Origin: Thermodesulfobacteriota bacterium
GTDB taxonomy: Bacteria > Desulfobacterota_D > UBA1144 > Nemesobacterales > Nemesobacteraceae
Assembly (NCBI GenBank): GCA_965204035.1
Contig: OZ241964.1
Coordinates: forward strand, 1,905,251 to 1,969,250
Direction of reading: 5' to 3'
DNA length: 64,000 nucleotides
The notes beneath the pieces were generated by a model. That model saw only the letters and a program-made list of their open reading frames with translations. It had not been told where the DNA came from and searched no databases. Position numbers and translations under genes: made by a program. Below are positions 13,857 to 63,339 of the stretch, in pieces (the first letter of the stretch is position 1; every line of letters starts with the position of its first letter).

Positions 13857-14060
13857 ATGCCAAGCGAGACAGACCAGATTGGGATTATCCTGAGGATAGA
13901 CAGCGATAGGTTCTACTGCGAAAAAAAACCCAGTCAATTTACGGAGGATCAATCCGAGGCCGACATACTTACGGATGCAGAAGCGGAAAGAATTCGGAGA
14001 ATCCTTGTTCACAGGGGCTTAAGAAGGGTCACCAAAATATCGGTGTTGCCGGGATATTGA
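13857..14060 (+). CDS. small hypothetical protein (67 aa)
   Basis: Good RBS ggaggaatcgtgttATG. No family recognised. Confidence 0.3.
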   Translation: MPSETDQIGIILRIDSDRFYCEKKPSQFTEDQSEADILTDAEAERIRRILVHRGLRRVTKISVLPGY

Positions 14061-14127
14061 CCTGAAATTCTGAGCATGTACGCAGTAAATCTAGCTGGAC
14101 AATCCTAATTCTTGGGACAACACCAAC

Positions 14128-14982: not shown

Positions 14983-15037
14983 TAGTGGTCGTGGTTTCAA
15001 GCTTGCCTTTCTTTGAGGTTTTGTCAGCAAAAAACCG

Positions 15038-39264: not shown

Positions 39265-39947
39265 TAGCGGTGGCGGTGGCCTTTACGGCAACGGCCTCCG
39301 CAACCGCAGAAAATCCCGCTTCGCTTAAGGGAGTAAGAACCAGCCCCGGCGAAGCAGAGCTCTCCCGCGTGAAAAAGCTTCTGGGGAACCTCAAGGAGCC
39401 CGATACGCAAGGGGCCGAGAAAACCCTCTCAGAGATAAGAAACAATTCCCCCGGGGAAAAAGAAACCGAAGAAATAATGGAACTGCTGTCGGCTAAACCC
39501 CAACCCGCGACGGCTCTTTCTGAAAAAAAGGCAGGAGCAGGAAGCGGGAACTCAAGGCTTTTTTACTTTTTCTCATTCTCGATGCCGCGCCTATCTCTGC
39601 GCGAAGCGGCGAGGGAAAGCGCGGCCGGCGGAGCGGTGATGGTTCTCCGGGGACTTTCGGGAGAAGACCTCGGGGGAACCGTCTCGCGGATATCCGAGGT
39701 CATAGGGAAAACCGGAGCGCAGGTATGGATAGACCCCCTTCTTTTCGAATGCTTCTCCGTAGGGGCCGTGCCGCAGACCGTACTTGCCCACGCCCACCTG
39801 CCGGGAGCGGACTGCGAGGGTCTGCGCCACGTAAAGGTTTCGGGGGACGTATCGCTTCCCTACGCTCTCGGGCTTATGGAAAAGGAGGATGCAAATGCCG
39901 GGATATTTATCGAACGGCTCAATAAAAACGGCTTTTACGGTGATTAG
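39225..39947 (+). CDS. trbC: F-type pilus assembly protein TrbC
   Basis: Starts within the end of traU (in-frame ATG at 39225 or 39234). Signal peptide (LLPALIAVAVAFTATASA). Position between traU and traN as in F. Confidence 0.45.
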   Translation: MGAMEKKRLLPALIAVAVAFTATASATAENPASLKGVRTSPGEAELSRVKKLLGNLKEPDTQGAEKTLSEIRNNSPGEKETEEIMELLSAKPQPATALSEKKAGAGSGNSRLFYFFSFSMPRLSLREAARESAAGGAVMVLRGLSGEDLGGTVSRISEVIGKTGAQVWIDPLLFECFSVGAVPQTVLAHAHLPGADCEGLRHVKVSGDVSLPYALGLMEKEDANAGIFIERLNKNGFYGD

Positions 39948-42425: not shown

Positions 42426-43822
42426 GAAAAACATTCCTTGGGATAATATTTGTTTTCGCCCTCATTCTCCCGCCCCGTGTCTGCCTGGCCGATCTCGGGA
42501 GCGAGGTCCGCGGCATGTTCGACCGCCTCGGGCTCTCGGGGACCGCCACGTCGGCCGGGGTCTACGAGGGGCAGTCAAGGGGATTCGTCACGGGAGGCTC
42601 GGTCTCGGTAAGGCTTCCCAACGAAACCATACAGCCGCTTTCCGTGAGCCTCCCGCATCTTCGCTCGGGGTGCGGAGGGGTGGATCTTTTCCTGGGAGCG
42701 ATCTCCTACATAAGCGCGGACGACCTCATACGGAAGATGAAGGCCATAGGGACGTCGTTTTCAAGCTACGCGTTCATGATGGCGCTTAAGACGCTCTGCT
42801 CCCCGTGCGAGAACATAATGGAAAAGCTCGAGGCCGCCTCGCGCGCCGCAAACTCCCTCAGTGTCGACACGTGCAGGGCGGGGGAGAGCCTCGCCGAGGG
42901 AATATTCGGGCAAGGAGGAATAATCAGGGGAGAGCAGGCGGGGCGCTGCGCGTTCGTGGGAGTCAGGCAGTCACTTTTCACCGACCCGGCGGAGGGGCTC
43001 TCCGAATGCCGCACCCAAAGCGGGATAACAAACACCGTCGCGGACATAAACGCGGGCACCGTCGCGCAGGACAAGGAGCTGGTAAAGCCGACCAGAAACA
43101 CGGTGTGGGAGGCGCTTCGGACCATTCCTCCGGGAACCCTCTCAAAGGAGCAAAAAGAGCAGGTGATGAGCGTCACGGGAACTTTCATAATCACGCAGAC
43201 GCACTCTGAGTACAAGCCCCCGACCATAAGCCTCGAGTACCTCGCGGGCGGAGGCGGCGCGGGGAAGGTGTATGACTGCGGGTCGGACCCCGATTGCGCG
43301 GCGCCCGCAACAGCACCTGTCGGGGCGAGCTTCAAGCCGTTTTCAGAACTTGTCTCGGAGAAACTGCTTGAGGCCCACGCTTCCATAGTCGGAAACCGCC
43401 GCCCGCAGGACGATACCGTCAGGTTTCTCGACGCGCTGCCCTTTCCCGCGTGGAAGCTTCTCTCCTCGGCCGGGGCGGTGGATCCCGAGATAGGCGGAAC
43501 CTACGTCTCCGCGCTTGCGAGGCCGATAGCGGTGTTCTCCGTGGCGGCGTGGCTTGAGCGGGCGGAACGAAGCCTCTGGAGCGGCGTCGGGAGCTCCGAG
43601 AGAAAGGGAACGCTCTCCGCGATGGACAGAAAAAAGATCGCCGAGCGGATGAGGATGCTCCGCGAGGAGATCTCGCTCATGATGGAGCAGGAGAACACGA
43701 AGATAGAGGAGCTTGTCTACGCCCTCTCCATAATAGAGCACCTTGACTCCCGGTCCCCGGTGGTGTTCGAGAGAAAAAGCCGCCACAAGGCGGGCGACGA
43801 GGTGATACAGGGTGCCGACTGA
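42422..43822 (+). CDS. traH: F-type T4SS protein TraH
   Basis: Signal peptide. GGSVSVRLPNETIQPLSVSLPHLRSGCGGVDLFLGAISYI matches the TraH signature (SLP...aGCGGIDlF.G..S.I). Confidence 0.7.
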   Translation: MRKTFLGIIFVFALILPPRVCLADLGSEVRGMFDRLGLSGTATSAGVYEGQSRGFVTGGSVSVRLPNETIQPLSVSLPHLRSGCGGVDLFLGAISYISADDLIRKMKAIGTSFSSYAFMMALKTLCSPCENIMEKLEAASRAANSLSVDTCRAGESLAEGIFGQGGIIRGEQAGRCAFVGVRQSLFTDPAEGLSECRTQSGITNTVADINAGTVAQDKELVKPTRNTVWEALRTIPPGTLSKEQKEQVMSVTGTFIITQTHSEYKPPTISLEYLAGGGGAGKVYDCGSDPDCAAPATAPVGASFKPFSELVSEKLLEAHASIVGNRRPQDDTVRFLDALPFPAWKLLSSAGAVDPEIGGTYVSALARPIAVFSVAAWLERAERSLWSGVGSSERKGTLSAMDRKKIAERMRMLREEISLMMEQENTKIEELVYALSIIEHLDSRSPVVFERKSRHKAGDEVIQGAD

Positions 43823-46800
43823 GGGAACCATGGACGGGGAAAACACGCGCGCCGGGCGCCCGGGGACGGCTTTCGCGCTCGGGACCGCGGCGCTCGCGGG
43901 GGTCCTGCTTTTCCCGGAGACGGCGGGGGCCCAGGGGGGCTTCCAGATAGACACCTACGGAAACGGGCAGTTCATAGCCGAGGTGCTTAACTCCGTAGCG
44001 ATCCTGGCTGGCTCGGGCCTACTGGGTCTCATACGCCTGGGCCTGGTGGCGGGCATACTGCTCGCGGTCCTGTCCTCGTTTTTCGGCGGAAGGACGGCTC
44101 CCGGCCACCAGTTCGCGCTCTCCATACTCATCTACATGATGCTCTTCGGCGTGAAGGTCGACATGGCGGTCTACGACAGGGTGACCTCGTACACGAGGGT
44201 GATATCGTCGGTGCCGGCCGGGGTCGGGATTTTCGCCTGGGCGACCTCGGGGGTCGGAAGCGGTCTCACCAGGGTCATGGAGGGGGCGTTCTCGCTTCCG
44301 GGCGCGCTTCGCTACTCGGAAAACGGGCTGCTCCGCGGGGCCGAGCTAATAAAGCGCTCGACCTCGTTCGCGGTCGCGGAGCCCCATCTCGCCAACACCC
44401 TTGACTCCTTTGTGAGGGAGTGCGGCCTGAAAAGCATAACCTCGGGGCTCGTGAGCCCCGACAGCCTCGAGAAGTCGGCCGATCTTTTCTCCTCCATGGG
44501 AACGGCCAACTACCGTTTCGTGGAACTCCACACAAACGTCGCCCTGCCCGCGGGCGCCTACGCCTCCCCACAGAGCGCGGGGGACTGCTCCGCGGCCGCA
44601 AGGCCCATACTGGCCTACTGCGGGGAAGCGCACGCGGGCGTAAACGCCTGCCTCAACGCCTACTATCCCGGGTGGACGAAGGAGCTTGCCGAGGAATCCG
44701 GGTTCGTCGACCGCCAGACCAACGCAGTCGACACAGCCGGCTTCACGGCGGCCCTTCGTGAATCGTACAGGGAGCTTGCCGGGGTCTCGATGTCCGCAAA
44801 GGACATAATCATCCAGAACGCCCTTATAAACAGCTACTCCCGCTCGATCAAGTCGCTCGCGGTCGCCGGGGGGTCTGAGGCCTCGCTTCTCAGCCTCTCG
44901 ATCGCCGAGGCGCGCGCGAGGCAGAAAAACTCGTTTCTGGTGCTGGGAGAGATGGCCCGCCACACCCTCCCCTACATAAGGGGGCTCCTCCAGGGAATGC
45001 TCTACGGCATATTCCCGGCGGTGATCTTCCTGGCGATGACGCCGCTTGCGGCGCGGATAATCCCCGCCTACCTGATCGCGATGTTCTGGACCGAGCTCTG
45101 GAATCCCATATACGCCATAGTGAACCTGTTCTCAAGCCTGAAGCTCGCAAGGGCGCTCGGTCCCTACACAGACGGCGCCCTCACCGTGATATCGAGGGGC
45201 TCCGTCGTTCACGAGTCCGACATGGCCATGGCGGTCGCGGGGCTTGCGGCCACCATAGTCCCCATGATCGCCTACTACGTCGTCTCGGCAAGCCAGCACG
45301 CCGTGGTGGGGGCCGTGCAGCAGTTCATGGGCCCCACGCAGTCAATCTCGACCCAGACGGCCGGGGCCCACGCCGCGGGAAACATATCGCTTGGAAACGT
45401 GTCGGTCGCGACGGGGCGCTACGACACGGTGACGGCGAACAAGTCCGATGTCGCCCGCGAGTCGGTGACGGGGAGCCTCACCCGCCGCTACGACAATGTC
45501 CACGAGCAGCCGGCCTCAAGCGTGGGAGGGATGCGGATAACGGGAGAAGAGGGCGTCCGGTTCGCGGCAAGGGAGGAGCTTGCCGACACCATGCGGAACA
45601 TGGAGGCAAGCAGGGAGGCGGTAACGGATTCCGCGGCCGCGGCGTCCGTGCGGATGGTCGGGGCCTCGCGCGCGGCCACGGACGAGAGGGGCTACTCCGA
45701 GGCGCTCGGGCTCTCAAGCGCTACGGGCGAGAAGAAGGATCTCGCGACCGTGCTCGAGACGGCCGAGAACCTGCAGAGGCGGTTCGGCCTCTCCCGCCAG
45801 GAGTCGCTCAAGATGTCGTGGGATACCGCGATGGTCTACGAGACGGGGGCGCGGGCTGGAGCTTCCGCGGGGCTTGCGGGCGGAGGCCCCGGGAGAGCGT
45901 CGGTCGGCGCGGGGATAAAGGCGCGGGGAGCGCGCAAGACCGACACGAGCGCGGCCGAGAGGTACGAGGAGGCAAGGGAGTTCGCCTCTAGCTCAAACTC
46001 CCGGGTGAATTTCTCAACGGCTTTCTCCGAGCTTGAGAGCACGCTCACGTCAAGGGAGGCCCGCGAGAGCCTGCAGTTCACGGCCCGGGACTCGGAGGAG
46101 GCGAGGGCCGAGCTTCGCTCCGCGAGAAGCTCCCTTCAGGATTACTCCTCCCAGAGGGAGAGGGCAAGGGCCTACTCAGAAGTGCTCTCGGGGGAGAGCT
46201 CCTTCGGCGCGGGTCTTGAGAGGGAGTACACCCAGGCGGTGTTTGCCGACATGAGGGGGCAGGGCCACTCGGACAGCTACGTGGCCAGGGGACTTACCGA
46301 CCTTCGCGACGGAAGATACGACACCGGGGAAGCGGAAGCCGTCTCCGGATCGATACACAGGGTAACGGGCCTCTCGGAACTTGTCGGCGCGGGAAGGGGA
46401 ACCAGGGAATCGGTCGCCGCGATGCCCGCGGAGGGCTACGGCCTCGGCAACGTCCGCAGATTCGAGGTCGACGCGGAGCAGTCCTTCGGGGAATACAGGA
46501 AGTCTGCCGCGGGGGCCGGTGGCGCCGGGGTGACGCAGACGCAAAGTTCGATAGAGGAGGATTCCGCGGCGATAAGGGAGCAGGTGTCCCGCGCGCGGGA
46601 GCGGGCCCGGGGAAAAATCGAAACCGGCGGGACAAAAACCGCGGAGAATCTTGGGGCTGGGAGAGACGAGATATTCGAGGGCGGGGAGTCTCTTCAGCGT
46701 TCAACTGAAGGGGTGCGGAAGCGTCTTGATAACGCGAGATCGGAGAGCGTTTCCCGGGAACAGGGAATGTCTGAAATCAGAAAGTCTATCGAGAGCAGCA

Positions 46801-46835
46801 GGGCGCAGCAGGAAAAAGACGACGGGGCCGGATAA
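43812..46835 (+). CDS. traG: F-type T4SS protein TraG (VirB6-like membrane N-domain + long C-terminal domain)
   Basis: About 1000 aa. Multiple N-terminal TM helices, hydrophilic Ser/Arg/Glu-rich C-terminal half. Last gene of the order H-G. Confidence 0.6.
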   Translation: MPTEGTMDGENTRAGRPGTAFALGTAALAGVLLFPETAGAQGGFQIDTYGNGQFIAEVLNSVAILAGSGLLGLIRLGLVAGILLAVLSSFFGGRTAPGHQFALSILIYMMLFGVKVDMAVYDRVTSYTRVISSVPAGVGIFAWATSGVGSGLTRVMEGAFSLPGALRYSENGLLRGAELIKRSTSFAVAEPHLANTLDSFVRECGLKSITSGLVSPDSLEKSADLFSSMGTANYRFVELHTNVALPAGAYASPQSAGDCSAAARPILAYCGEAHAGVNACLNAYYPGWTKELAEESGFVDRQTNAVDTAGFTAALRESYRELAGVSMSAKDIIIQNALINSYSRSIKSLAVAGGSEASLLSLSIAEARARQKNSFLVLGEMARHTLPYIRGLLQGMLYGIFPAVIFLAMTPLAARIIPAYLIAMFWTELWNPIYAIVNLFSSLKLARALGPYTDGALTVISRGSVVHESDMAMAVAGLAATIVPMIAYYVVSASQHAVVGAVQQFMGPTQSISTQTAGAHAAGNISLGNVSVATGRYDTVTANKSDVARESVTGSLTRRYDNVHEQPASSVGGMRITGEEGVRFAAREELADTMRNMEASREAVTDSAAAASVRMVGASRAATDERGYSEALGLSSATGEKKDLATVLETAENLQRRFGLSRQESLKMSWDTAMVYETGARAGASAGLAGGGPGRASVGAGIKARGARKTDTSAAERYEEAREFASSSNSRVNFSTAFSELESTLTSREARESLQFTARDSEEARAELRSARSSLQDYSSQRERARAYSEVLSGESSFGAGLEREYTQAVFADMRGQGHSDSYVARGLTDLRDGRYDTGEAEAVSGSIHRVTGLSELVGAGRGTRESVAAMPAEGYGLGNVRRFEVDAEQSFGEYRKSAAGAGGAGVTQTQSSIEEDSAAIREQVSRARERARGKIETGGTKTAENLGAGRDEIFEGGESLQRSTEGVRKRLDNARSESVSREQGMSEIRKSIESSRAQQEKDDGAG

Positions 46836-46950: not shown

Positions 46951-48189
46951 ATGTCACGTTCTTATGTCCGCTGGCAGCGGAACACTTTGGAAAAAGCTCT
47001 CGAAACGCGCCGCGTGCTGTTGCTCTGCGGAGCGCGGCAATGCGGCAAGACTACTCTTGCCAAGGAACTGGTTTCACATGATGTAGCCTACCGCACTTTA
47101 GATGATCCGGCCGTACGGCAGATTGCCGAAACCGACCCCCGAGGTTTTGTCAGGCACTCGGGAAAAACCCTCATTATCGACGAGATCCAGCGTGCTCCCG
47201 ATCTGCTTTCCGCGATCAAGATAAATGTAGATGAAGATACAAGGCCCGGACAATACCTGCTGACAGGTTCGGCCGACATACAGTCTTCCCCGGGGGTGCG
47301 GGAATCTCTCGCCGGACGTATAAGAAAGGTACGGCTGCGTCCGCTCACGCAGGGAGAGATTTTGGGGGTGGTTCCAGACTTCCTTGACCGGGCTTTCGGA
47401 CAGGACTTCGGGCATCCCGACCGCGCTTACGGTCGTGACGCCATGCTGGACATCTCTTTTGGGGGCGGCTTCCCGGAAGCTATTCTGCTTGGGGACGCAG
47501 AACGAAGACTATGGCATCGGGACTATGTGGACGCGATTCTTGAGCGCGACCTGAGGGATCTCGGGCGTATCCAGCGACGCGATGCCATGAGCGAACTGAT
47601 ATATGCCCTGGCAGCATGGTCGGGCAAATTCATGGACATCTCATCCATAGCCGCCGGACTTTCCATCGTCCGCTCCACGGTCGAGACATATATAAACGCC
47701 TTGGAAACCCTGTATGTGGTCGAGCGCATAAGGCCGTGGAAACGCACGGACTACGCGCGGGCGGGGAAACGCCCCAAGCTGTTTATGACCGATTCGGGAC
47801 TTATGTCTTCGATTCTCGACTGGGACAGGCAGCAGGTTCGCATGGACGCGGACCGCTCGGGCAAACTGATTGAAACCTTCATGTTCAACGAAATAGCCGC
47901 CCAGGCAGACGCCAATGCCGGAAAATACAGCCTGTTTCATTACCGTGACCGCGAAAAGCGCGAGATTGACTTCCTGATCGAAAGGGAGGACTCGGCGCTA
48001 CTCGGGATTGAGATCAAGGCGGGCTCGGCCATCGGAACGAGCGATTTCAGAAGCCTCAGCTGGTTTAAGAAAAACATCGCGCGCGACAGAAAATTTACCG
48101 GGGTCGTACTCTATTCGGGAGAACTCGCGGGTTCCATGGGTGACGGGCTGTGGGCCGTTCCTTTCGGAACGGTCTGGAACCGGTCGTAA
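46951..48189 (+). CDS. AAA+ ATPase of the DUF4143-containing (COG1373-like) family
   Basis: Walker A LLCGARQCGKTTLAKE; Walker B-like TLIIDEIQRAPD. About 410 aa, typical architecture. Confidence 0.55.
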   Translation: MSRSYVRWQRNTLEKALETRRVLLLCGARQCGKTTLAKELVSHDVAYRTLDDPAVRQIAETDPRGFVRHSGKTLIIDEIQRAPDLLSAIKINVDEDTRPGQYLLTGSADIQSSPGVRESLAGRIRKVRLRPLTQGEILGVVPDFLDRAFGQDFGHPDRAYGRDAMLDISFGGGFPEAILLGDAERRLWHRDYVDAILERDLRDLGRIQRRDAMSELIYALAAWSGKFMDISSIAAGLSIVRSTVETYINALETLYVVERIRPWKRTDYARAGKRPKLFMTDSGLMSSILDWDRQQVRMDADRSGKLIETFMFNEIAAQADANAGKYSLFHYRDREKREIDFLIEREDSALLGIEIKAGSAIGTSDFRSLSWFKKNIARDRKFTGVVLYSGELAGSMGDGLWAVPFGTVWNRS

Positions 48190-48625
48190 GCCGGCTGGCT
48201 CACCTTGAAAGAGTAAAATGCATGGCGGCCTGTCGTACAAAACTTCTCTTGCCGCTTGGTAAGAAACATGAAATTCCGTTATCCTTGCAAATTGTGCATA
48301 TGATTGCTTGATTTGCAAGGATAAGCCGCTTGAATCAATTGGGAATTATATACAATAGTGCCGAAAGTCCTTAATCCTCAGTCCTTCTTAAAGCGATGTG
48401 CCTTGTGCTCGGATACATCCTTCCTTTGAACATTTACAGGCTGGACTATCGCCTTAGCCAATTCCTCTGGGGTAGCATCAATAGAAAACTCTTCATTCAT
48501 TTCTGCCACCGTTGGTTCATAGTCGCTTGGCAGAATCTCTATATCGTCTTTCTCTGGCTCTTCGCTCAACTGATCACCCCTCGGACTTTTCGGATAGTGA
48601 ATACTACCCTATTTTGACGCTGAAA

Positions 48626-49205
48626 TCAACGCTGTTCCCTCCTGCAATAAGCTCGCTCCTCTCTAGGCACAGAATTTATAACCTCCCCATACTGATACAC
48701 CAATGAAGGTCTTGCTTCAATTGCATATTGACTATGGATTATGTCACGGAAAACATCATGGGGAAGGTCGAGAATTGTGTCATAAAGCCCTAATTCCTGT
48801 TGTATCTCCCTCCCACTGACAACAGTGGAACAGGTAACAATTCCAGGGTAGGTGTCAAGACGTAAGCACAGTCTCCCATGAGAAACTACCCAGTGTCCCG
48901 CAACATCAGGCGGCCGAGTCCCGACCTCACAAGCTTCCCAAACCGCTTCTGCTGCCTCTGCTATTTCTTCATGGTCAATTGTTCCTGTAAAAGTTCCATC
49001 GGGGTTGTAATCGTTGGTCTCTCCTTCACAAGACCAGTAGTCATCTCCTCTTGTAATGAGAAACTCGGGATGTTCCCCGGACGGTAACGGTTCAGTATGG
49101 GTCAATGTAGGGTCAGAACAGTCTGTCTCTAGATCACCTCCATCACCGCCCCCACAACCAGCAACAAAAATCAATACTACGAATAAAGACAGAATCGTCC
49201 TCATG
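48626..49205 (-). CDS. lipoprotein (passenger of the IS-bounded element)
   Basis: MRTILSLFVVLIFVAGCGGGDGG lipobox. The longer listed ORF upstream is probably not translated. Confidence 0.35.
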
Positions 49206-49458
49206 ACAAAACCTCCTAAGCTTGGTTTTAGCCTGGACGCAAGGCACCGGGCCTTGCTTACAACCAAAGAGACTTTGGACGTTCTGCTTCTTTGCCGGAT
49301 GGCTATTGTATCCACAGAGACCCGGCAGAGCGGGTTCTCTTCGGTTGTAAGCAATTCTGACTATATCACAACGAGGCGGGATAATCTATGAGAATTTCAA
49401 TCTTGAGAAACACTGACTGCCGGGTACAATTCCCGCCAACCAAAATTAGGAGAGTGCT

Positions 49459-50034
49459 ATGGCAAACGGGAATCTAGAAAAACCTAAATGCGTTTATGGA
49501 ATATTCACAGCAGAGATTGTGCCGAACACCGTGGAGAGTTTAATTCAGACGTTATCAAAAATAGCGCAAGAGAATATTCCTGAAGTATACCTTGCACTTT
49601 CAACGCCTGGCGGAAATGTTGCCCAAGGTATTACTCTCTACAATTTCCTTCTAGGAACACCTTTTAAGCTTACCATTCACAACATAGGCAATGTTGATTC
49701 GATCGGAAATGCAGTCTTCCTTGCAGCTGACGAAAGATTTGCATGCGCACGCTCAACCTTTATGTTTCACGGCGTAGGATTTGACCGGGAAGCGGGACGG
49801 TTTGAAGAAAAGCAGTTGCGGGAAATGTTAGACGGAATCAGCGCAGACCAAAGGCGTATCGGAGACATCATCACCGAACGCACCGGTATCCCTCAAAATG
49901 AAGTGGATGGATTCTTCCGAGAAGCTCAAACCAAAACGGCGGAATTCGCTTGCGATAGGGGCATAGTTAACGATATCCGAGAGTTTAATTTGCCCGGTGG
50001 CGTACCCGTATTCTCGTTTGTATTCAAGCGATAA
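49459..50034 (+). CDS. ClpP-like (S14 / 'SDH family Clp-fold') serine protease, 191 aa
   Basis: STPGGNVAQGITLYNFL (cf. ClpP INSPGG.V.AGLAIYD), NVDSIGNAVFLAAD (Ser nucleophile region), MFHGV (His). RBS aggagagtgctATG. Confidence 0.55.
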   Translation: MANGNLEKPKCVYGIFTAEIVPNTVESLIQTLSKIAQENIPEVYLALSTPGGNVAQGITLYNFLLGTPFKLTIHNIGNVDSIGNAVFLAADERFACARSTFMFHGVGFDREAGRFEEKQLREMLDGISADQRRIGDIITERTGIPQNEVDGFFREAQTKTAEFACDRGIVNDIREFNLPGGVPVFSFVFKR

Positions 50035-50197
50035 TGCATCAGGAATCGCTTTTCTTATAAAAACTAAATTCATTTTCGACCTCACCCAACTATGATTGTA
50101 CTGGCCTGTCAATACGATTGCAAGTTTTTGTCACTCTTGATTACCATTGTTCATCAAATCATCCACTCACTTTCGGGTGGCATTCCTCTAGAAACTA

Positions 50198-51172
50198 TCA
50201 AAGGGGATATTTGTTGTCAACTTTATCGTTTGTAATCAGATCCTTATACTTAAGCCTTTTCCCCACAATGCCCTTCGCAAGGAATGCCATCTGGTCTACC
50301 GTGTCCATCTCTCGGACATTGTGGCGACCTGCGAACTCCGTAACGTAACGCTCCAAGTGCTTCGGAGAGATGCGATGGTAGGTTCCGTAATAACCTCTCT
50401 TTAGTTGAGCCCAGAAGGACTCCACGCCGTTTGTGTGTGCCATATCACGGACATACTCTCCTACGCTGTGATTTACGCTTTCATGCTCGAAGGGAAGCCC
50501 GATATAGCTTCTGTGATCGTCCGTGTAAACCATCGCTTTCTGGGAGACATTCGCACTGATAAATCCTTGCAACTCTTCCTTTGTCCTTTCAGGAACAGGC
50601 TTGGCTACCACCTTGTTGGTTTTCCTGTCTTTCATTCCCACTACTACAGTCTTTCCCGAAGGACCCCGAGTGAAGCTACGCTTGTCCGCATGTTTGTTTT
50701 TCTCTTTGCCGCCTATGAAAGTTTCGTCTACTTCTACAGGACCGGTAAAGTCTTCTGACTCGCCTTTCCACGATTCCCTGATACGATGTGCTAAATGCCA
50801 AGCAGACTTCTGCGTGATCTCCAAGTCTCTGTGCAGCTTCATGCTGGATACTCCCTTGAGGGAAGTGGTAACAAGGTAAGTAGCTATCGCCCAAGTCTGG
50901 TATCCAAGATTGGACGCTTCCATGACAGTGCCAGTTCTGACGCTGAATCGTTTGGCGCATTCCTTTTCACGGCAACGATAGGGCATAGTCTTGTGCTTTG
51001 CTCCCGATTGAACATTCGTAGACCCGCAATGCGGGCAAGCGGGTTTTCCTTCCCATCTTTGCTCCGCAAACCATTTCTCCGCAGTCTTGTCGTCGGGGAA
51101 CATCCTGAACAGTTTTGGTAAACTGATTCCTTTTCTGAACGCCTTGCCTGGTGCTTTCTGTTTCTTGCTCAT
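50198..51172 (-). CDS. IS1595-family (ISXO2-like) DDE transposase
   Basis: N-terminal zinc-ribbon KPACPHCGSTN...YRCREKEC; DDE core (MVYTDDHRSY, ...GVESFWAQLKRGYYGTYH) typical of IS1595. Confidence 0.7.
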   Translation of the reverse strand: MSKKQKAPGKAFRKGISLPKLFRMFPDDKTAEKWFAEQRWEGKPACPHCGSTNVQSGAKHKTMPYRCREKECAKRFSVRTGTVMEASNLGYQTWAIATYLVTTSLKGVSSMKLHRDLEITQKSAWHLAHRIRESWKGESEDFTGPVEVDETFIGGKEKNKHADKRSFTRGPSGKTVVVGMKDRKTNKVVAKPVPERTKEELQGFISANVSQKAMVYTDDHRSYIGLPFEHESVNHSVGEYVRDMAHTNGVESFWAQLKRGYYGTYHRISPKHLERYVTEFAGRHNVREMDTVDQMAFLAKGIVGKRLKYKDLITNDKVDNKYPL

Positions 51173-51530
51173 TTTTAGTCTCCTCATTCTGAGTAAGAAT
51201 ATCAAGGGTTTAGAGTCACCTCATGGCAGTTTTTTGACATTCGACAATCAGTTCCGCAGCATAGCCGGAGGAAAAGTCACCCGTCAAGGCTTTTGCACTG
51301 TGTTTTGTGGGGGAAATGGAGGGAAGTTTGGCTAGTTAGATATAATCGGCACTATTGTATATAATTCCCAATCAATTACCTTGCCACCGTATCAAAGTCC
51401 GGCAAGACAAGAAAAACCGATTTGTCGGATTAGTGGCGCCTTAGAGGTTCGTCGGTTCCCCGAAATTTCGGCCTGCTAGCCTAATCTCTCACGCTCCACG
51501 AAGAGAAAGAAGCCTATTTGCTCCAGTCAT

Positions 51531-54822: not shown

Positions 54823-56193
54823 TTATGTCGTTTGGATGAGAGGCAGTTCACTCTGTGTTGATATGCTGGACCGATATCTTGCCGGCTTGTCGAGTTTTTC
54901 CAGCTTGTTCTCGGATACGGCCTGCCTGAGCCAGGAGTTCAGCCGGGACCTGCTTACCGGAATCAACTCGCCGAGTTCTGCAGGCCTGCGCGCTTCATTG
55001 CCGCAAAACTCCCGGACCGCGTCAAGGAAGCTTTCATAGCTGGAGAAATCCTGGTTTATCCATTGGTATCTTACCGGCTTGCTGAGTTTTTCCAGCTTGT
55101 TCTCGGATACGGCCTGCCTGAGCCAGGAGTTCAGCCGGGACCTGCTTACCGGAATCAGTTCCCCTAGCTCCGCTGGTCTGCGTGCCACTTCGCCGCAAAA
55201 CTCCCGGACCGCGTCAAGAAACGTTTCATAGGAGTAGGAATCCGTCTCCGGTTCCCGCGTTTCGTCTCTCGCCAACAGACCCGCAAAGTCAAGTTCACTG
55301 ACCAACCTCGGAGCGCGTAACGCTCCCCGTTCTTCCAAGGCCGCGTTTCCCCCCGACTGGTCACCGTCTTCCCTCACCCAAAGCTTGACCCAGCGTCCGT
55401 TTAAGTTCTCCACAGCCCCACCCCAGGTTCCCCCTTTTCCCTTGACTGAATGAACCACGAACGCGGCATCTGACATGCAGTAGATGTACCTATTGCGCCG
55501 CATCGCGTTGCCTGCATTGAACCTCGCCTCGGGATTGTAAGGTGATACCAGAGCCAGCCTCCCGTCCATGATGTGACTGCGGTATTTTTCCTTCAGGCAA
55601 GTCCCCATCAGGTTGTCAGACAGTACTCCAACAGCTTTCCCGCCCTCAAGCAGGCTTCCGAACATCGCCGCTTCGTCCACTCCCGCAGCCCCGCCCGACA
55701 CCACGGAACAGTCCTCCCGCGCGGCCGCGCCTCCCAGAAGCGCGCTGTACGCCAATCCCTCCGCCTCGACCTTGCGGGAACCCACCACGGCCAGAGATCT
55801 GCCGCTCAGCAGGGACCTGTCTCCGCATCCGAAAAACGTCGCGGGCGAGTTCTGTTTCAGACGACCTTTAAGCCGGGAGGGGTAGTCAGGGTCGGAGCGT
55901 GTCATAACCCATATCCCGGCTCTCTCCCACTTCTCCAGAGACAGGGCAAGCGCCGCCCCCCTGGCCAGCAGCGATTCCACGCGCTTGGCTGTGACCGACC
56001 TGTCGTCAAACTCCCGCATCAGTTCCCCGACCGATCCTTTAATCAGGCACCCCGGAGTCAGGTTTTTCGATTTGAGCCACCTTGCGAAGCGTCCCCACTC
56101 GGCAACGGTCAGGGGCCTAACTTCCCTGTTTCCGCCGCGGGAGAACCAAGCGGTCATCAGAAGCACCGCTTCTGTTTCATTGGAACTGTTCAT
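54823..56193 (-). CDS. DprA/Smf-like (SLOG Rossmann) protein with a tandemly duplicated ~60-aa C-terminal segment
   Basis: SGGAAGVDEAAMFGSLLEGGKAVGVLSDNL...RNRYIYCMSDAAFVVHSVKGKGGTWGGA matches the DprA core (SGgA.GID.aAH.gaL..gg.TiaVlg.Gld..YP..N...RNRiI.gLs...vVVEA...SGsL.TA). C-terminal repeats YETFLDAVREFCGEVARRPAELGELIPVSRSRLNSWLRQAVSENKLEKL x2. Confidence 0.55.
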   Translation of the reverse strand: MNSSNETEAVLLMTAWFSRGGNREVRPLTVAEWGRFARWLKSKNLTPGCLIKGSVGELMREFDDRSVTAKRVESLLARGAALALSLEKWERAGIWVMTRSDPDYPSRLKGRLKQNSPATFFGCGDRSLLSGRSLAVVGSRKVEAEGLAYSALLGGAAAREDCSVVSGGAAGVDEAAMFGSLLEGGKAVGVLSDNLMGTCLKEKYRSHIMDGRLALVSPYNPEARFNAGNAMRRNRYIYCMSDAAFVVHSVKGKGGTWGGAVENLNGRWVKLWVREDGDQSGGNAALEERGALRAPRLVSELDFAGLLARDETREPETDSYSYETFLDAVREFCGEVARRPAELGELIPVSRSRLNSWLRQAVSENKLEKLSKPVRYQWINQDFSSYESFLDAVREFCGNEARRPAELGELIPVSRSRLNSWLRQAVSENKLEKLDKPARYRSSISTQSELPLIQTT

Positions 56194-56196
56194 CAG

Positions 56197-58275
56197 TCAA
56201 GCGGAACCGGCTGACGCAAGCGCCAAGGGGTAAACCGGACCGCTTCCCCCTTGTCTTAAAATCACCGCGATTACGGTCATCGTCCATCTCGAATCGGTAA
56301 TGTCGTCCACGAGCAGAACGGGAGTCTGCGGTATGCTGCCGTACACTTCGAAGACGCCGTCAAGATTTCTGCATTGATGCAAAGAATTCTGCTGCTCTTT
56401 TTGAGGCTCGTTTCTCCGTTTTTTTCTGACCGCATTCTTAATAAACCTTATTCCCAGCCTCCGTGCAAGTCTTTCGGCGAATTCCGGTACCAAGTCAGGA
56501 TGTTCATGCGACGGCACGCACGCTACCCATTCGGGCCGGGGTTCCGGCTTCCATCGTTTCTGTAGCATCCCGGCCACGGCTTCCACCAGTTCGTCCGCAA
56601 AAAAACCCTCCTTCTTTCCGGCAGTCACTGCCTCCGCCAAGCCGCCGTCGCCCCATCTGCAAAGGATGCGGCCCTCGGACGCGGCGAATTTCTTCAGCTT
56701 CCCGGAGTCGAGGCCGTATTGCGGAAAGGCGTTCGCCGGAACCTGCAATCTCGGCTTAAGTACCATCTCGCCCGTGCGCCCCAAGTAGTTTCTGGCTTCC
56801 GTTAGCATTTCCCGCGGAACACGCGGGTCAATGAGGGGCTTGCCCCGGCAGACGGCGCAGCGGCCACAGTCTTCTGTGTCCGGATCGTCGAGGGCGCTGC
56901 ACAGGCGGGACATGAGGCAGGTTCCACTGTCGATGTATCGTTGTATTTCCTCCCACTCAGCTTCCCGCTGGCGCGTCAGGCGCCCGATGAGTTCACGGTT
57001 CATTTCATATTTGACCGGCGTGCGCCTCCATTTGGGCCCATCCTTGATTACCGGCGCGGGATTTTCGACGCTGAGAAACTTGAGCGTCTTATCGATCTGG
57101 CCCCGGCGCAGATTAAGATTCGCCTCCATTTCAGGGATGCTCATGCCGTCGGCCGACCCTAGCAGCGAGAGAATCTCCCCTACATGCTCCTCATCGGGAA
57201 ATGCACTACGGCGAAAATACTCCATTATGTCGGCGTCTTCCTTACCGGCGATCAGAACGCCGTACGCTTGGGCAACGGCTCTTCCCGCCCGCCCTACCTG
57301 CTGGTAGTAGCTGATTATCGATCCCGGAGCCTGATAATGGATGACGAAGCTTATGTCCGGTTTGTCGTAACCCATTCCCAAGGCCGTCGTAGCAACCAGG
57401 GCCTTGATCCTGTTGTCCTGAAGCAGTTCTTCAAGGTGCGGGCGGTCCTCCGAATCGCTGTGGTAGGCGCGCGCGTTGATTCCCTGTTCTCTGAGCCACG
57501 CAGCCGTTCTCTCAGCGTCTCTTTTGGTAAGAACATAGATGATACCCGTTCCCGGCAGCTCCGGGATTCGTTGCGCGAGCCACGCCAGTCTTGACGCCAT
57601 GTCCGGCATGCGCAGGGTTTGGAGACTGAGGCTTTTCCGCCTTAACGGCCCCCGCTGAATCTCGAGGCGGCCCAACTGTTCCCTAGCGTCGTTGATGACC
57701 CTGTCGTTGGCCGTGGCGGTGGTGGCCAGAACGGGCATGTTCGAGGGCACGCGCCTCAGTATGTTTACTATGCGCTTGTAGTCCGGCCGGAAATCGTGTC
57801 CCCAGTCCGATATGCAGTGAGCCTCGTCCACGACCAGCATGCCTATGCGGTCCGCTATCCGAAGAAGCGTGTCTTCCACGAAAGACTGGTTTGCGAGACG
57901 CTCAGGAGATATAAGCAGGACATCGATTCCGTCCGAATCCATCGATCGCCTGATTTCCTGCCAGTCGGACCGATTCGTGGAGTTTATCGTCGCGGCGTTG
58001 AGTCCGAGCCGGTCTGCTTGGCGAAGCTGATTGCGCATGAGGGCCAGCAGCGGCGAAACGATCAGAGTCGGCCCCCCTCCACGGTCCCGCAGAATGCGCG
58101 TGGTTATGAAGTAGACGGAACTTTTGCCCCATCCGGTCCGCTTTACAAGCATTATCCTGCCGCTACGATTCGAGAGTGCGTCGATCGCTTCCCACTGACC
58201 GTTGCGGAAGCGGGCGGAACTGTCGTTTACGGCAGTTTTGAGAAGGGATTCGGCGTGAGCGAGATTCGTCGTCAT
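56197..58275 (-). CDS. RecQ-family helicase fused to a C-terminal PRTase-like (ComF-type) domain
   Basis: Walker A KRTGWGKSS; DEAH box LVVDEAHCISDWGHDFRPDY; Zn-binding CGRCAVC. C-terminal VLLVDDITDSRWTMTV resembles the PRTase PRPP-binding loop (hhhhDDhhTTGxT). 4-bp gap to the downstream DprA-like gene. Confidence 0.55.
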   Translation of the reverse strand: MTTNLAHAESLLKTAVNDSSARFRNGQWEAIDALSNRSGRIMLVKRTGWGKSSVYFITTRILRDRGGGPTLIVSPLLALMRNQLRQADRLGLNAATINSTNRSDWQEIRRSMDSDGIDVLLISPERLANQSFVEDTLLRIADRIGMLVVDEAHCISDWGHDFRPDYKRIVNILRRVPSNMPVLATTATANDRVINDAREQLGRLEIQRGPLRRKSLSLQTLRMPDMASRLAWLAQRIPELPGTGIIYVLTKRDAERTAAWLREQGINARAYHSDSEDRPHLEELLQDNRIKALVATTALGMGYDKPDISFVIHYQAPGSIISYYQQVGRAGRAVAQAYGVLIAGKEDADIMEYFRRSAFPDEEHVGEILSLLGSADGMSIPEMEANLNLRRGQIDKTLKFLSVENPAPVIKDGPKWRRTPVKYEMNRELIGRLTRQREAEWEEIQRYIDSGTCLMSRLCSALDDPDTEDCGRCAVCRGKPLIDPRVPREMLTEARNYLGRTGEMVLKPRLQVPANAFPQYGLDSGKLKKFAASEGRILCRWGDGGLAEAVTAGKKEGFFADELVEAVAGMLQKRWKPEPRPEWVACVPSHEHPDLVPEFAERLARRLGIRFIKNAVRKKRRNEPQKEQQNSLHQCRNLDGVFEVYGSIPQTPVLLVDDITDSRWTMTVIAVILRQGGSGPVYPLALASAGSA

Positions 58276-58797
58276 ATCATGCCCTGCGGCAGTTCGCCGA
58301 TGCTCCTCACCAGCGAATCGTATTGTTTCCGATCTTTTCTTCGGGTCGTCACAAGCACGAACTTTACCGTGTCGGCAAGCTCGAGAATATCAACCGGTTT
58401 TATTCTCCTGTCGAAAATTTCCTCAAGATGCGAAAGCTCGTTGCCTATATAAAAAGTTTGCGGTACAACCCATCCAAGGTTGAGGCTTCAGTTGCTAATC
58501 CCGGTACAGGAGTTTTTGAAATCCACCATACCTTTGCCTCATCATCCCAGTTTGCCTCAAAAACAAAAGTTTGCATGTTTAATTTCTCCCTTGTTTTCTG
58601 GACGTACCTTAGGCTTTTCGGAACAGATGCAGGTTATCCAATTTCACGCTAGATTCAAGGTCTTAGGACACCAGCGGCAAGGTGATGAACATTGCTAAAA
58701 TTTTTCCGGCAACAGGGCACAGGAAACCGTTAACCGCCCCTTAACGGACACTTTGCGCCGCTTTGACGAAGACCGGGAATAATCAGCGCCCGGGGGC

Positions 58798-61872: not shown

Positions 61873-63339
61873 ATGGCGACACAAACTAACTTACCATTTT
61901 CCTGGGAACAAGTCGACAGTCTCTCCGACCTCAACCGTCTTTGTCTCGTACTTGACGCCCTGCCCGACGCAGACATTATCAACGCTCTTGAGCAGACGCG
62001 GGCTAACGGTCGCAACGAATACCCCGTGGCGGCGATGTGGAGAGCCTTGATAGCGGGGATAGTCTTCGGGCACCCCTCCATCGAGTCACTCATACGGGAG
62101 CTTCACCGCAACTCCTCGCTGCTTGAGCTTTGCGGATTCAGTTCCGTGCCCCTGCAAAGACGAGCCAGGTACAGAACTGTAACTGCCGCCGACGGTATCA
62201 GGGTTGTGGTTATAGACCCCCCTCCCCGCAGTCCCGCTCCCGGAAGTCACAACTTCTCCCGCTTCCTCTCAAACGTGGTCAGGATTGAGAAGCGCCATGG
62301 TCTTGTATCAAGGATGATCGACAACCTGCGGGGAGAGCTTATGGAACTGCTGCCCGACTTCGGAGAGAACCTAGGTTATGACGGCAAGGCGATAAAGAGC
62401 AACTCCACGGGACGCAAGAACTGCAAGGGAGGCGAGACGTCGGACCCCGAAGCCGATTGGGGAAAGCATGAATACTCCGGGGTTGACTCAAACGGCAAAA
62501 CGTGGAGGAAGATAAAGACATGGTTCGGCTACCGCCTGCATATGATTGCGGACACCAAGTACGAGCTACCGGTTGCCTTCAGTCTGACCAGGGCTTCTGT
62601 TTCCGAGGTGAAGGAGCTTGACCGCGTGACGGACGCATTGTTCGGCAAAGACCCCGGGCTTGCGAAGCGGTGCAGGCACCTGAGCGCGGACAAGGGGCTT
62701 GACAGCGGTTCTCTGAAGAAGAAGTTGTGGGACAGGTGGCGGACTCGTCCGATTATAGACAACAGGGATCTTTGGAGAGAAGAGAAGGAGGGTCAGAGCT
62801 ATGTCGAGGGACAGAAGATCATGAGACCTCTTGGCAGCGTGCACGACAACATCTTCTACACCGAGCGCGCTGAGGTCTGGTGTCGGTGTCCTGTAAGCGG
62901 GACGGAACGCAAGATGGCGTTCTGTGGTTTTGAATCCAACAGATGCGGTTTGAAGTTCCATTGTCCCGCGGCGGCGTACGGTCTCAGGTGCGAGGGGTGG
63001 AAGAAGTGTCACGATGACGCGGGCTGTGTGACCAGCGGTTACGGCAGGGTTGTGCGCGTCCCTCTTGAGCGTGACCGTCGTATTTTTACTCCCACCCCCC
63101 GCAGCAGCGTGTCGTGGCATCGCACTTACAGGCGCCGCAACGCCATAGAGCGCATCAACTCCAGGATAGACAACAGCTTCGGATTCGAAAGGCACTTCAT
63201 CAGGGGCAAGGCGAAGATGACGGCGCGGGCGGGTTTGGCGCTTGCGGTGATGATGGCGCTTGCGGTCGGTCACATAAAGGCAGGGAGGCCCGAGTGTATG
63301 AGGTCGCTTGTTTCGGGGTGCTGGGCCGATACCGGGTAG
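61873..63339 (+). CDS. IS5/IS1182-like DDE transposase
   Basis: HLSADKGLDSGSL (aDkGYds box) and C-terminal RNAIERINSRIDNSFGFERHFIRGKAKMTARAGLALAVMMALAV, typical of IS5-superfamily transposases. RBS gaaggaggagcaaacccATG. Confidence 0.55.
   Translation: MATQTNLPFSWEQVDSLSDLNRLCLVLDALPDADIINALEQTRANGRNEYPVAAMWRALIAGIVFGHPSIESLIRELHRNSSLLELCGFSSVPLQRRARYRTVTAADGIRVVVIDPPPRSPAPGSHNFSRFLSNVVRIEKRHGLVSRMIDNLRGELMELLPDFGENLGYDGKAIKSNSTGRKNCKGGETSDPEADWGKHEYSGVDSNGKTWRKIKTWFGYRLHMIADTKYELPVAFSLTRASVSEVKELDRVTDALFGKDPGLAKRCRHLSADKGLDSGSLKKKLWDRWRTRPIIDNRDLWREEKEGQSYVEGQKIMRPLGSVHDNIFYTERAEVWCRCPVSGTERKMAFCGFESNRCGLKFHCPAAAYGLRCEGWKKCHDDAGCVTSGYGRVVRVPLERDRRIFTPTPRSSVSWHRTYRRRNAIERINSRIDNSFGFERHFIRGKAKMTARAGLALAVMMALAVGHIKAGRPECMRSLVSGCWADTG

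What the first reader, a model, noticed from the sequence alone, without database searches (positions are those of the whole stretch)
54823..58275. RecQ-helicase-PRTase fusion + DprA-like pair (PsyrTA/ShosTA-like toxin-antitoxin/defense module) with a fresh tandem duplication in the DprA-like gene
A RecQ-family helicase (DEAH, Zn motif) carrying a C-terminal PRTase-like domain (VLLVDDITDSRW) is followed 4 bp later by a DprA/Smf-like SLOG protein. Helicase/PRTase + DprA-like pairings are characteristic of the PsyrTA (RqlHI) and ShosTA families, which have been reported as toxin-antitoxin-like anti-phage modules. The DprA-like gene ends with two near-identical ~190-bp tandem DNA repeats (54880-55215), an in-frame duplication of about 60 aa. 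This suggests recent slippage or recombination in the putative antitoxin.
Basis: partly seen in the sequence, partly recalled or inferred. Interest (0 to 1): 0.6.

Follow-up and report, generated by a model that had tools for sequence, protein, structure and literature searches.

The report
PsyrTA (RqlHI) toxin–antitoxin defence pair
This is an ordinary, intact member of the known PsyrTA/RqlHI toxin–antitoxin anti-phage family, and the repeat in its antitoxin gene is an old, in-frame second copy of a small DNA-binding domain that is kept partly uniform by gene conversion.

Summary
They match the PADLOC PsyrT and PsyrA models end to end (E=3.9e-284 and 2.9e-132).

PsyrT is 54% identical over its full length to E. 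coli RqlH. The residues shown experimentally to matter in RqlH are conserved (K51, D150, D658). PsyrA has a DprA-like core, and the closest solved structures are DprA and ShosA. The PsyrTA interpretation is therefore supported.

The repeat is also real: period 192 nt (64 codons), in frame, no indels. It duplicates the C-terminal winged helix-turn-helix (wHTH) domain, the domain that was dispensable for antitoxin activity in RqlI.

The repeat is not fresh:
- The copies are 87–88% identical, not near-identical.
- The first 29 codons have dS≈1.07, followed by a 74-nt perfectly identical tract (permutation P≈1.5e-5).
- A relative with 91% nt identity has the same two copies, and each is orthologous to its counterpart here.
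- Other relatives carry 1, 2 or 3 copies, and at least eight separate DprA-like clusters have 2–3 wHTH domains.

The best reading is an old duplication, copy-number change by unequal recombination, and partial homogenisation by gene conversion. This is a new member of a known kind with a minor, undescribed architectural variant. Interest is low to moderate.

The parts
56197..58275 (-). psyrT (rqlH-like): 692-aa toxin, a RecQ-like SF2 helicase fused to a C-terminal PRTase domain
   Evidence: ORF. PADLOC PsyrT 3.9e-284, residues 1-689 against model 1-684/689. 54% identity to E. coli RqlH over residues 8-688. AF2 model pLDDT 86.
57226..58215 (-). RecQ-type helicase core (aa ~21-350) with Walker A K51 and DEAH 150-153
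56848..56919 (-). Cys cluster (C453, C470, C473, C476), a putative Zn-binding module
   Evidence: Invariant in 53 homologues. Weak Pfam RecQ_Zn_bind match at 435-477, E=0.025, below threshold.
56200..56778 (-). C-terminal PRTase-type domain (aa ~500-692), the toxic module by analogy with RqlH
   Evidence: Pfam Pribosyltran 0.0057, sub-threshold. NCBIfam GntX 3.9e-5 and ComF 2.4e-4, sub-threshold. A profile of this domain against the PDB returns almost only PRPP synthetases and HGPRTs. RqlH residues 509-690 are required for toxicity (PMC4670107).
56281..56319 (-). PRPP-binding loop VLLVDDITDSRWT (aa 653-665); D658 corresponds to RqlH D663
   Evidence: D657, D658, D661, S662 and W664 are invariant. 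The loop aligns to E. coli LLVDDIVDSAWT. The D663A mutation abolishes RqlH toxicity (PMC4670107).
54823..56193 (-). psyrA (rqlI-like): 456-aa DprA-like antitoxin
   Evidence: ORF. PADLOC PsyrA 2.9e-132, two matched stretches. 37% identity to E. coli RqlI. AF2 pLDDT 90.8. Foldseek gives DprA 3maj 5.3e-17 and ShosA 8zva 2.4e-14.
55312..56193 (-). SAM-like helical N-domain (aa 1-91) plus DprA Rossmann/SLOG core (aa 94-294)
   Evidence: Pfam DNA_processg_A at residues 89-258. Secondary structure of the AF2 model. Structural matches to DprA and ShosA.
55051..55242 (-). wHTH copy 1 (aa 318-381), repeat unit 1 of 192 nt
   Evidence: The AF2 model shows H322-333, H340-346, H351-363, E367-370, E375-378, a winged-helix topology. 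It aligns to the C-terminal HTH of RqlI. Detected by TRF and the repeat finder.
54859..55050 (-). wHTH copy 2 (aa 382-445), repeat unit 2, followed by an 11-aa tail and the stop codon
   Evidence: The AF2 model shows H386-397, H404-410, H415-427, E431-434, E439-442. 87% aa identity to copy 1.
55084..55157 (-). 74-nt tract in copy 1 that is identical to 54892-54965 in copy 2, a putative gene-conversion tract
   Evidence: Alignment. dS=0 over 24 codons against dS=1.07 in the preceding 29 codons. Permutation P≈1.5e-5.
54892..54965 (-). Partner of the identical 74-nt tract, in copy 2
58386..58414 (-). Sigma-70-like promoter match upstream of psyrT. This is a consensus match only.
   Evidence: TCGACA, 17-nt spacer, GATATT, 9 of 12 positions matched.

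Best explanation
This is a two-gene PsyrTA (RqlHI) toxin–antitoxin / abortive-infection module.

Shown here by sequence and fold:
- PsyrT is a RecQ-like helicase fused to a ComF/PRPP-synthetase-like PRTase domain with an intact DD PRPP loop.
- PsyrA is a SAM–DprA(Rossmann) protein with two tandem C-terminal wHTH domains.
- psyrA sits 3 nt downstream of psyrT, in the same orientation.

Inferred from the E. coli homologue RqlHI:
- When unrestrained, the PRTase domain is genotoxic, causing SOS induction and filamentation.
- PsyrA neutralises it through its N-terminal and DprA regions, by physical association that requires the PRTase domain.

Inferred from the Millman 2022 screen and from ShosTA:
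- Phage infection removes or titrates the antitoxin, for example through transcription shut-off with fast antitoxin turnover, or through competition from phage ssDNA or RecA.
- The freed toxin then blocks DNA replication and aborts the infection.

The 192-nt repeat is an in-frame second copy of the wHTH domain.
- It arose before this lineage split from a relative at about 91% nt identity.
- Both copies are under purifying selection.
- It is partly homogenised by intragenic gene conversion. Unequal recombination gives relatives 1, 2 or 3 copies.
- Its role is probably accessory DNA binding or autoregulation rather than toxin neutralisation.
For: Family assignment:
- PADLOC PsyrT 3.9e-284 and PsyrA 2.9e-132, both full length.
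- 54% identity to E. coli RqlH and 37% to RqlI. K51, D150 and D658 align to RqlH K49, D148 and D663.

Fold:
- The PRTase profile returns PRTase-fold proteins from the PDB.
- The PsyrA model matches DprA and ShosA.

Gene pairing:
- The toxin gene lies immediately upstream of the antitoxin gene in 13 of 16 related loci.

Mechanism, from the literature:
- PMC4670107 for the PRTase requirement, the co-immunoprecipitation and the dispensable HTH.
- 10.1101/2022.05.11.491447 for phage defence, and for the psyrA deletion construct that could not be transformed.
- PMC11961720 and PMC12961424 for ShosTA.

The repeat:
- TRF period 192, 88% matches.
- Orthologous copy 1/copy 1 identity is 90.1% and copy 2/copy 2 is 90.6%. 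Copy 1 versus copy 2 within a gene is 81.8% here and 78.6% in L001.
- dS=1.07 and dN=0.14 in the first 29 codons, then dS=0 over the next 24 codons.
- Permutation P=1.5e-5 for the identical run.
- Relatives have 2-3 copies with the same 192-nt period: L016 has 2.8 copies at 95%, L001 has 1.8 copies at 87%.
- Unit tails are orthologous across QUERY, P0002 and P0003 while the interiors are homogenised. The single unit of P0013 looks like a fusion of copy 1 and copy 2.
Against: - Nothing was tested experimentally in this organism. Toxicity, neutralisation and phage defence all rest on homologues that are 37-54% identical.
- The biochemical activity and substrate of the PsyrT PRTase domain are unknown in any member.
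- Every single-family PRTase hit is below the curated threshold.
- The fold search of the full-length model listed only helicases, so the PRTase fold was not confirmed structurally.
- The pair is not in an obvious defence island. Its neighbours are glycosyltransferases and an aminotransferase.
- Gene conversion is inferred from the pattern of substitutions. Very strong local selection at the nucleotide level is not formally excluded.
Confidence: 0.85

Rival explanations
1. The pair is housekeeping DNA-repair and competence machinery: a genuine RecQ helicase with a genuine DprA that loads RecA on incoming ssDNA.
For: Both proteins belong to the RecQ and DprA superfamilies. The literature notes the parallel with ComFA/ComFC/DprA. 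The neighbours look like housekeeping genes and the pair has the same GC content as its flanks.
Against: The RecQ equivalog TIGR01389 scores 260.9 against a cutoff of 640.2, and DprA TIGR00732 scores 86.4 against 191.15. There is no RQC or HRDC domain, and a PRTase domain takes their place. The family-specific PsyrT and PsyrA models fit end to end. No competence genes are nearby.
Confidence: 0.05
2. The repeat is a fresh tandem duplication from recent slippage or unequal recombination, or an assembly artefact.
For: The repeat is perfectly in frame, head to tail, with no indels, and it contains a 74-nt perfectly identical core.
Against: There are 26 differences in 180 nt, and dS≈1.07 in the first 29 codons. 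An independent metagenome contig (L001, 91% nt identity) has both copies, each orthologous to its counterpart. A 99%-identical 456-aa protein occurs on two other long contigs. Arrays of 2-3 copies are found throughout the clade.
Confidence: 0.04
3. The helicase belongs to a Dpd (7-deazaguanine DNA modification) system as DpdF, or the pair is a ShosTA system.
For: PADLOC DpdF models hit the helicase at up to 7.2e-85, and ShosA hits PsyrA at 9.6e-27. NCBIfam DpdF gives 5.6e-45.
Against: The DpdF hits cover the helicase core or short C-terminal pieces and are far weaker than PsyrT. NCBIfam DpdF scores 154 bits against a cutoff of 550. No other dpd genes flank the pair. ShosT has a PPase-like N-domain and no helicase (PMC12961424), and no ShosT model appears among the 25 listed toxin matches.
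Confidence: 0.02
4. The module is a decaying remnant with no current function.
For: A truncated DUF1902 ORF lies just upstream. The closest NCBI genome, L003, has a frameshifted psyrA.
Against: Both ORFs are full length with every catalytic and invariant residue intact. dN/dS against L001 is about 0.22 for psyrA. Both wHTH copies show dN well below dS.
Confidence: 0.04

Closest known systems
RqlH–RqlI of extraintestinal pathogenic E. coli, also called PsyrTA (Sberro 2013; Russell & Mulvey 2015, PMC4670107; Millman 2022)
   Same: Same two-gene order with a tight junction. The toxin is collinear, 692 versus 698 aa, 54% identical, and K49, D148 and D663 are conserved. The antitoxin has the same N-domain, DprA core, linker and C-terminal HTH, at 37% identity. 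The PADLOC PsyrT and PsyrA models fit end to end.
   Different: RqlI and the PADLOC PsyrA model (398 positions) have one C-terminal HTH. This protein has two in tandem and is 456 aa long. The host is not an enterobacterium. The nearest named relative is a Thermodesulfobacteriota MAG.
ShosTA (PMC11961720; PMC12961424; PDB 8zva, 9vzo)
   Same: A DprA-like antitoxin paired with a PRTase-domain toxin. ShosA is the closest solved structure by sequence (1.8e-10) and the second closest by fold. It probably shares the same logic of DNA-damage toxicity.
   Different: ShosT has a PPase-like Rossmann N-domain instead of a RecQ helicase. ShosA has no wHTH tail. No direct toxin–antitoxin binding was found, so ShosTA is classed as type IV, whereas RqlH and RqlI co-immunoprecipitate.
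Mycobacterium smegmatis RqlH (Ordonez et al. 2012, as cited in PMC4670107 and PMC5512222)
   Same: The founding biochemically characterised RecQ-like helicase with a C-terminal PRTase-like domain. It has 3'-5' translocase and unwinding activity.
   Different: According to PMC4670107, rqlH is often found without rqlI, especially in Gram-positive organisms. In this window the pair is complete.
ComFA / ComFC / DprA of natural transformation
   Same: The same three domain types: an SF2 helicase, a ComF-type PRTase-like domain and DprA. The PsyrT C-terminal domain's best NCBIfam hits are GntX and ComF. The literature already notes this parallel.
   Different: Here the helicase and PRTase are fused, the helicase is RecQ-type rather than ComFA-type, all scores are far below the equivalog cutoffs, and there is no competence neighbourhood.

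Membership tests
PsyrTA / RqlHI | The toxin has an N-terminal RecQ-like SF2 helicase with Walker A and DEAH motifs | tested here: met
PsyrTA / RqlHI | The toxin has a C-terminal PRTase domain with an acidic PRPP loop (RqlH D663) in place of RQC/HRDC | tested here: met
   No RQC or HRDC hit. VLLVDDITD aligns to RqlH LLVDDIVD. The profile returns PRPP synthetase and HGPRT from the PDB. ComF and GntX are the best NCBIfam hits. The PRTase fold itself was not confirmed by structure search.
PsyrTA / RqlHI | The antitoxin has a DprA-like Rossmann/SLOG core | tested here: met
   Pfam DNA_processg_A 6.1e-34. Foldseek 3maj, 8zva and 3uqz at 5e-17 to 9e-14.
PsyrTA / RqlHI | Operon order is toxin then antitoxin, with a tight junction | tested here: met
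   TGA-CTG-ATG junction. The same order is seen in L001-L011, L016 and the E. coli locus L017.
PsyrTA / RqlHI | Both proteins match the family-specific HMMs used by defence finders | tested here: met
   PADLOC PsyrT 3.9e-284 (1-689 / 1-684 of 689) and PsyrA 2.9e-132 (1-379 / 1-397 of 398, with a second stretch for the extra wHTH).
PsyrTA / RqlHI | The toxin is toxic alone, the antitoxin neutralises it, and the pair protects against phage | not testable with these tools
   Known only for homologues.
ShosTA | The ShosT toxin combines a PPase-like Rossmann N-domain with a PRTase and has no helicase | tested here: not met
   The toxin's N-terminal 480 residues are a RecQ helicase. No ShosT model is among the 25 best PADLOC matches listed for the toxin.
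Canonical RecQ | Reaches the equivalog score and has RQC and HRDC domains | tested here: not met
   TIGR01389 scores 260.9 against a cutoff of 640.2 and matches only residues 21-358. No RQC or HRDC in Pfam.
Canonical DprA (competence) | Reaches the equivalog score and sits in a competence context | tested here: not met
   TIGR00732 scores 86.4 against a cutoff of 191.15. The neighbours are glycosyltransferases, an aminotransferase, PAP2 and VKOR.

The most novel reading that the evidence does not exclude
The C-terminal wHTH array of PsyrA-type antitoxins may be a rapidly changing, selected module. It varies from 1 to 3 copies, expands and contracts by unequal recombination, and is homogenised by gene conversion. 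Copy number might tune operator binding or autoregulation, or the sensing of phage DNA or the infection trigger. That would make it an arms-race hot spot in a defence system whose trigger is still unknown.
Probability: 0.15. Interest if true: 0.45.

Novelty: new member of a known kind. Interest (0 to 1): 0.25.

Why it matters
The finding adds a clean, intact PsyrTA/RqlHI locus from a poorly sampled lineage, probably Thermodesulfobacteriota-like. PsyrTA is common (1,265 of 5,426 complete E. coli genomes give a match to this psyrT gene) but mechanistically unsolved: the PRTase substrate and the phage trigger are both unknown.

The only new point is architectural. In this clade, and in at least seven other DprA-like clusters, the antitoxin's C-terminal wHTH occurs as a tandem array of 2-3 copies with signs of concerted evolution. 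In E. coli RqlI that domain is dispensable for neutralisation. A dispensable yet repeatedly amplified and conserved domain suggests a second role, regulatory or sensory, that could be tested. This is a modest lead, not a surprise.

Tried and rejected
- **Single-sequence phmmer of the C-terminal domain against the PDB.** The only PRTase-fold hit was PRPP synthetase at E=0.25, the best of three weak hits. The 10-sequence profile improved this to 4.3e-4.
- **TRF on L002.** It reported no repeat, although the two units there are 91% nt identical. This was a tool miss, not a true absence.
- **The listing of cluster members.** It returned no organism names.
- **Genome-contig scan.** It returned only 13 loci. 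The nearest, L003, has a frameshifted psyrA. This may reflect long-read assembly errors and was not used for rate estimates.
- **Operator-like repeats upstream of psyrT.** Only two short direct repeats of 9-10 nt and no palindrome were found, so nothing supports a specific operator.
- **Literature search for tandem wHTH in DprA-like antitoxins.** It found nothing.
- **DpdF, ShosTA, canonical RecQ/DprA and pseudogene readings.** All were considered and rejected (see the rival explanations).
Full report
**Observation.**
Two minus-strand ORFs occupy the stated interval: 56197-58275 (692 aa) and 54823-56193 (456 aa). The junction reads TGA-CTG-ATG, a 3-nt spacer. Tandem Repeats Finder reports one array in the second gene at 54875-55231, with period 192, 1.9 copies, 88% matches and no indels. 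The repeat finder gives 54875-55051 and 55067-55243 at 87% identity. One unit is 64 codons and the repeat is in frame. In protein terms the units are residues 318-381 and 382-445, and they are 87% identical over their comparable part. The physical observation is therefore correct, apart from the word 'near-identical'.

**What the two proteins are.**
- The 692-aa protein matches the PADLOC PsyrT model end to end (E=3.9e-284; residues 1-689 on model positions 1-684 of 689).
- The 456-aa protein matches PsyrA (E=2.9e-132; residues 1-379 on 1-397 of 398). A second matched stretch accounts for the extra repeat.
- ShosA is a much weaker hit (9.6e-27). The DpdF models cover only the helicase core or short C-terminal pieces.
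- Pfam finds DEAD, Helicase_C and ResIII in the toxin, plus sub-threshold Pribosyltran (599-674) and RecQ_Zn_bind matches. It finds no RQC or HRDC. In the antitoxin it finds DNA_processg_A (89-258).
- NCBIfam places the toxin in the RecQ subfamily (239 bits, cutoff 219.8) but far below the RecQ equivalog (260.9 against 640.2). The antitoxin is far below the DprA equivalog (86.4 against 191.15).

**Invariant residues.**
In an alignment of 53 homologues the following toxin residues are invariant: K51 (Walker A), D150, E151 and H153 (DEAH), C453, C470, C473 and C476, and D657, D658, D661, S662 and W664 of the VLLVDDITDSRWT loop.

**Structure models.**
- The C-terminal 193 residues, searched as a 10-sequence profile against the PDB, return almost only type I PRTase-fold proteins, aligned over the PRPP loop. 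These are PRPP synthetases, from 4.3e-4, and HGPRTs.
- The best NCBIfam hits for this domain are GntX and ComF (3.9e-5 and 2.4e-4, sub-threshold).
- The antitoxin model (pLDDT 90.8) has a helical SAM-like N-domain, a DprA Rossmann core, a short disordered linker (312-317) and two consecutive H-β-H-H-β-β winged-helix modules.
- Foldseek's best matches to the antitoxin model are full-length DprA 3maj (5.3e-17), ShosA 8zva (2.4e-14) and S. pneumoniae DprA 3uqz.
- By sequence, no PsyrT or PsyrA structure is in the PDB copy. The closest antitoxin chains by sequence are 8zva_A and 9vzo_A, both ShosA.

**Direct comparison with the experimentally studied member.**
A blastn search of complete E. coli genomes found the rqlH locus in 1,265 of 5,426 genomes. 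In strain SK1144 it lies between gntU and yhgN and is annotated as 'RecQ family helicase' plus 'DprA'.

The window's toxin is 54% identical to RqlH over residues 8-688. K51, D150 and D658 align to RqlH K49, D148 and D663. The antitoxin is 37% identical to RqlI over residues 1-370. The first wHTH copy aligns to the C-terminal HTH of RqlI, which has only one.

Russell & Mulvey (PMC4670107) showed the following:
- RqlH alone induces SOS and filamentation.
- This needs the PRTase domain (deletion of 509-690, D663A).
- RqlI co-immunoprecipitates with RqlH only when the PRTase domain is present.
- The last 80 residues of RqlI, its HTH, are dispensable for neutralisation.

Millman et al. (10.1101/2022.05.11.491447) list PsyrTA among TA systems that protect against phage. 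They could not transform a psyrA deletion construct.

For the related ShosTA system, PRPP binding is required for toxicity. ShosA acts through ssDNA and RecA binding, and transcription shut-off by T7 Gp0.7 has been proposed as the trigger (PMC11961720, PMC12961424).

The parallel with ComFA/ComFC/DprA is already in the literature.

**Pairing and context.**
The toxin gene lies immediately upstream of the antitoxin gene in 13 of 16 other loci fetched (L001-L011, L016, L017). The nearest named genome is a Thermodesulfobacteriota MAG.

In the window the pair has the same GC content as its flanks, 0.55-0.62. It sits between glycosyltransferase and aminotransferase genes and GT1, PAP2 and VKOR genes. 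It is about 3.6 kb from an IS1595 transposase gene that ends a lower-GC stretch. Further upstream in that direction lie F-type conjugation genes.

Contig L001, at 91% nt identity, has the same upstream arrangement. The locus is therefore stable in this lineage.

**The repeat is not fresh.**
1. The 26 differences in 180 comparable nt are not spread evenly. The first 29 codons of the unit give dS=1.07 and dN=0.14. The next 24 codons give dS=0. The 74-nt identical run (55084-55157 and 54892-54965) has a permutation probability of 1.5e-5, or 1.3e-4 using third positions only.
2. In L001 both copies are present, and the copies are orthologous by position. Copy 1 against copy 1 is 90.1% identical and copy 2 against copy 2 is 90.6%. 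Copy 1 against copy 2 within a gene is 81.8% in the window and 78.6% in L001. L001 also has its own, different identical tract.
3. Of the 120 best homologues, the 11 closest full-length ones (53-99% identity) have two or three copies. Among the rest, every sequence long enough to include the tail has a single copy, mostly after a longer, acidic, low-complexity linker.
4. In P0003 (L002), P0005 (L016, three copies, TRF period 192, 95% matches) and P0010 the copies are 85-95% identical within a gene but only 40-70% identical to the window's copies. The unit tails nevertheless remain position-specific: KPVRY-(Q/R)-WIN for the internal unit against KPARYR for the last.
5. The single unit of P0013 has the body of a copy 1 and the tail of a copy 2 of its closest two-copy relative, as expected from an unequal crossover.
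6. A search of 1.84 billion cluster representatives with one 64-aa unit found 102 proteins at E≤1e-3. Eight DprA-like representatives have 2-3 matched stretches. Six of these were confirmed as DNA_processg_A proteins by Pfam, and P0005 and P0010 carry the same domain.

Together these results indicate three things. The duplication is old. Copy number changes by unequal recombination. The copies evolve in concert through gene conversion while under purifying selection.

**Mechanism and confidence.**
I am about 95% confident that this is a PsyrTA family member by sequence and architecture. I am about 70% confident that it works as a toxin–antitoxin / abortive-infection module in its host, which rests on homologues that are 37-54% identical.

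The PRTase substrate and the trigger are unknown for the whole family. The role of the second wHTH is unknown. Because the single HTH is dispensable for neutralisation in RqlI, an accessory DNA-binding, autoregulatory or sensing role is the most likely one. I found no operator-like repeats upstream to support a specific model.

**Novelty and score.**
The module is a new member of a known kind. The tandem-wHTH tail is an architectural variant that I could not find described, but it is not unique to this locus. Interest is 0.25. This is a correct defence-system call with an over-interpreted repeat, plus a small testable lead about the antitoxin's C-terminal domain.

Noticed in passing
window 58445-58576 (-): A 43-aa ORF just upstream of psyrT matches Pfam DUF1902, a domain I recall (from memory) as HicB-like, at E=1e-9. 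It covers only profile positions 2-39 of 74. The syntenic ORF in relative L001 (271-486) is intact at 71 aa. The window copy therefore looks like a truncated remnant of a small antitoxin-like gene.
   Followed up: partly
window 8853-16518: A cluster of defence-type genes lies about 40 kb from PsyrTA. It contains a TIR-like protein (8853-9635, 7.2e-09), a 1338-aa protein with an MqsA/HTH N-terminus that matches PD-Lambda-4_A almost full length (9719-13735, 3.9e-70), a PDC-S35 TIR protein (14128-14982, 3.1e-69) and a PDC-M57B match (15745-16518, 2.8e-78).
   Followed up: partly
window ~19392-46835: F-type conjugative transfer genes are present: a TraD/T4CP-like gene (19392-20840), TraC (26392-28824), TraN (39889-41628), TraF, TraH and TraG_N (43812-46835). 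This indicates an integrative conjugative element or a plasmid-derived region. Its boundaries were not determined.
   Followed up: no
window 46951-51205: This is a lower-GC stretch (0.43-0.49) next to the ~0.58-0.63 region around PsyrTA. It holds an AAA_14/DUF4143 ATPase matching the PADLOC candidate PDC-S01 (46951-48189, 2.1e-137), an ORF with no family match (48626-49354), a ClpP-like protein (49459-50034) and an IS1595 transposase (50198-51205). GC rises from about 0.51 at 51.2 kb to 0.59 by 52.3 kb.
   Followed up: partly
window 61873-63339 (+): A transposase with DDE_Tnp_1 and DUF772 domains lies about 3.6 kb on the other side of PsyrTA. The housekeeping-like block that contains PsyrTA is therefore bracketed by IS elements.
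   Followed up: no
L012 6001-7929 and L014 6001-7896 (Rhodothermales MAGs): These two loci carry two tandem DprA-like genes with no detectable wHTH tail. L014 matches only the C-terminal part of PsyrT (aa 393-692), and L012 has no PsyrT match. This may be a different architecture of the family.
   Followed up: no
L003 6001-7041 (Thermodesulfobacteriota MAG OZ219878.1): The closest NCBI-genome homologue of psyrA appears frameshifted and has a single wHTH copy almost identical to copy 1 of P0003. It is either a pseudogene or contains long-read assembly indel errors.
   Followed up: partly
P0010 (707 aa) and P0261 (992 aa, 6 matched stretches): wHTH units of this type also occur in other architectures. 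One is a PsyrA homologue with an extra N-terminal region of about 250 aa (precomputed Pfam PF08820 and PF08719). The other is an SF2 helicase with up to six matched stretches.
   Followed up: no
PsyrT versus PsyrA homologue sets: The toxin is much more conserved than the antitoxin across the same range of relatives. PsyrT homologues are about 60-65% identical where PsyrA homologues are about 43-47% identical.
   Followed up: no
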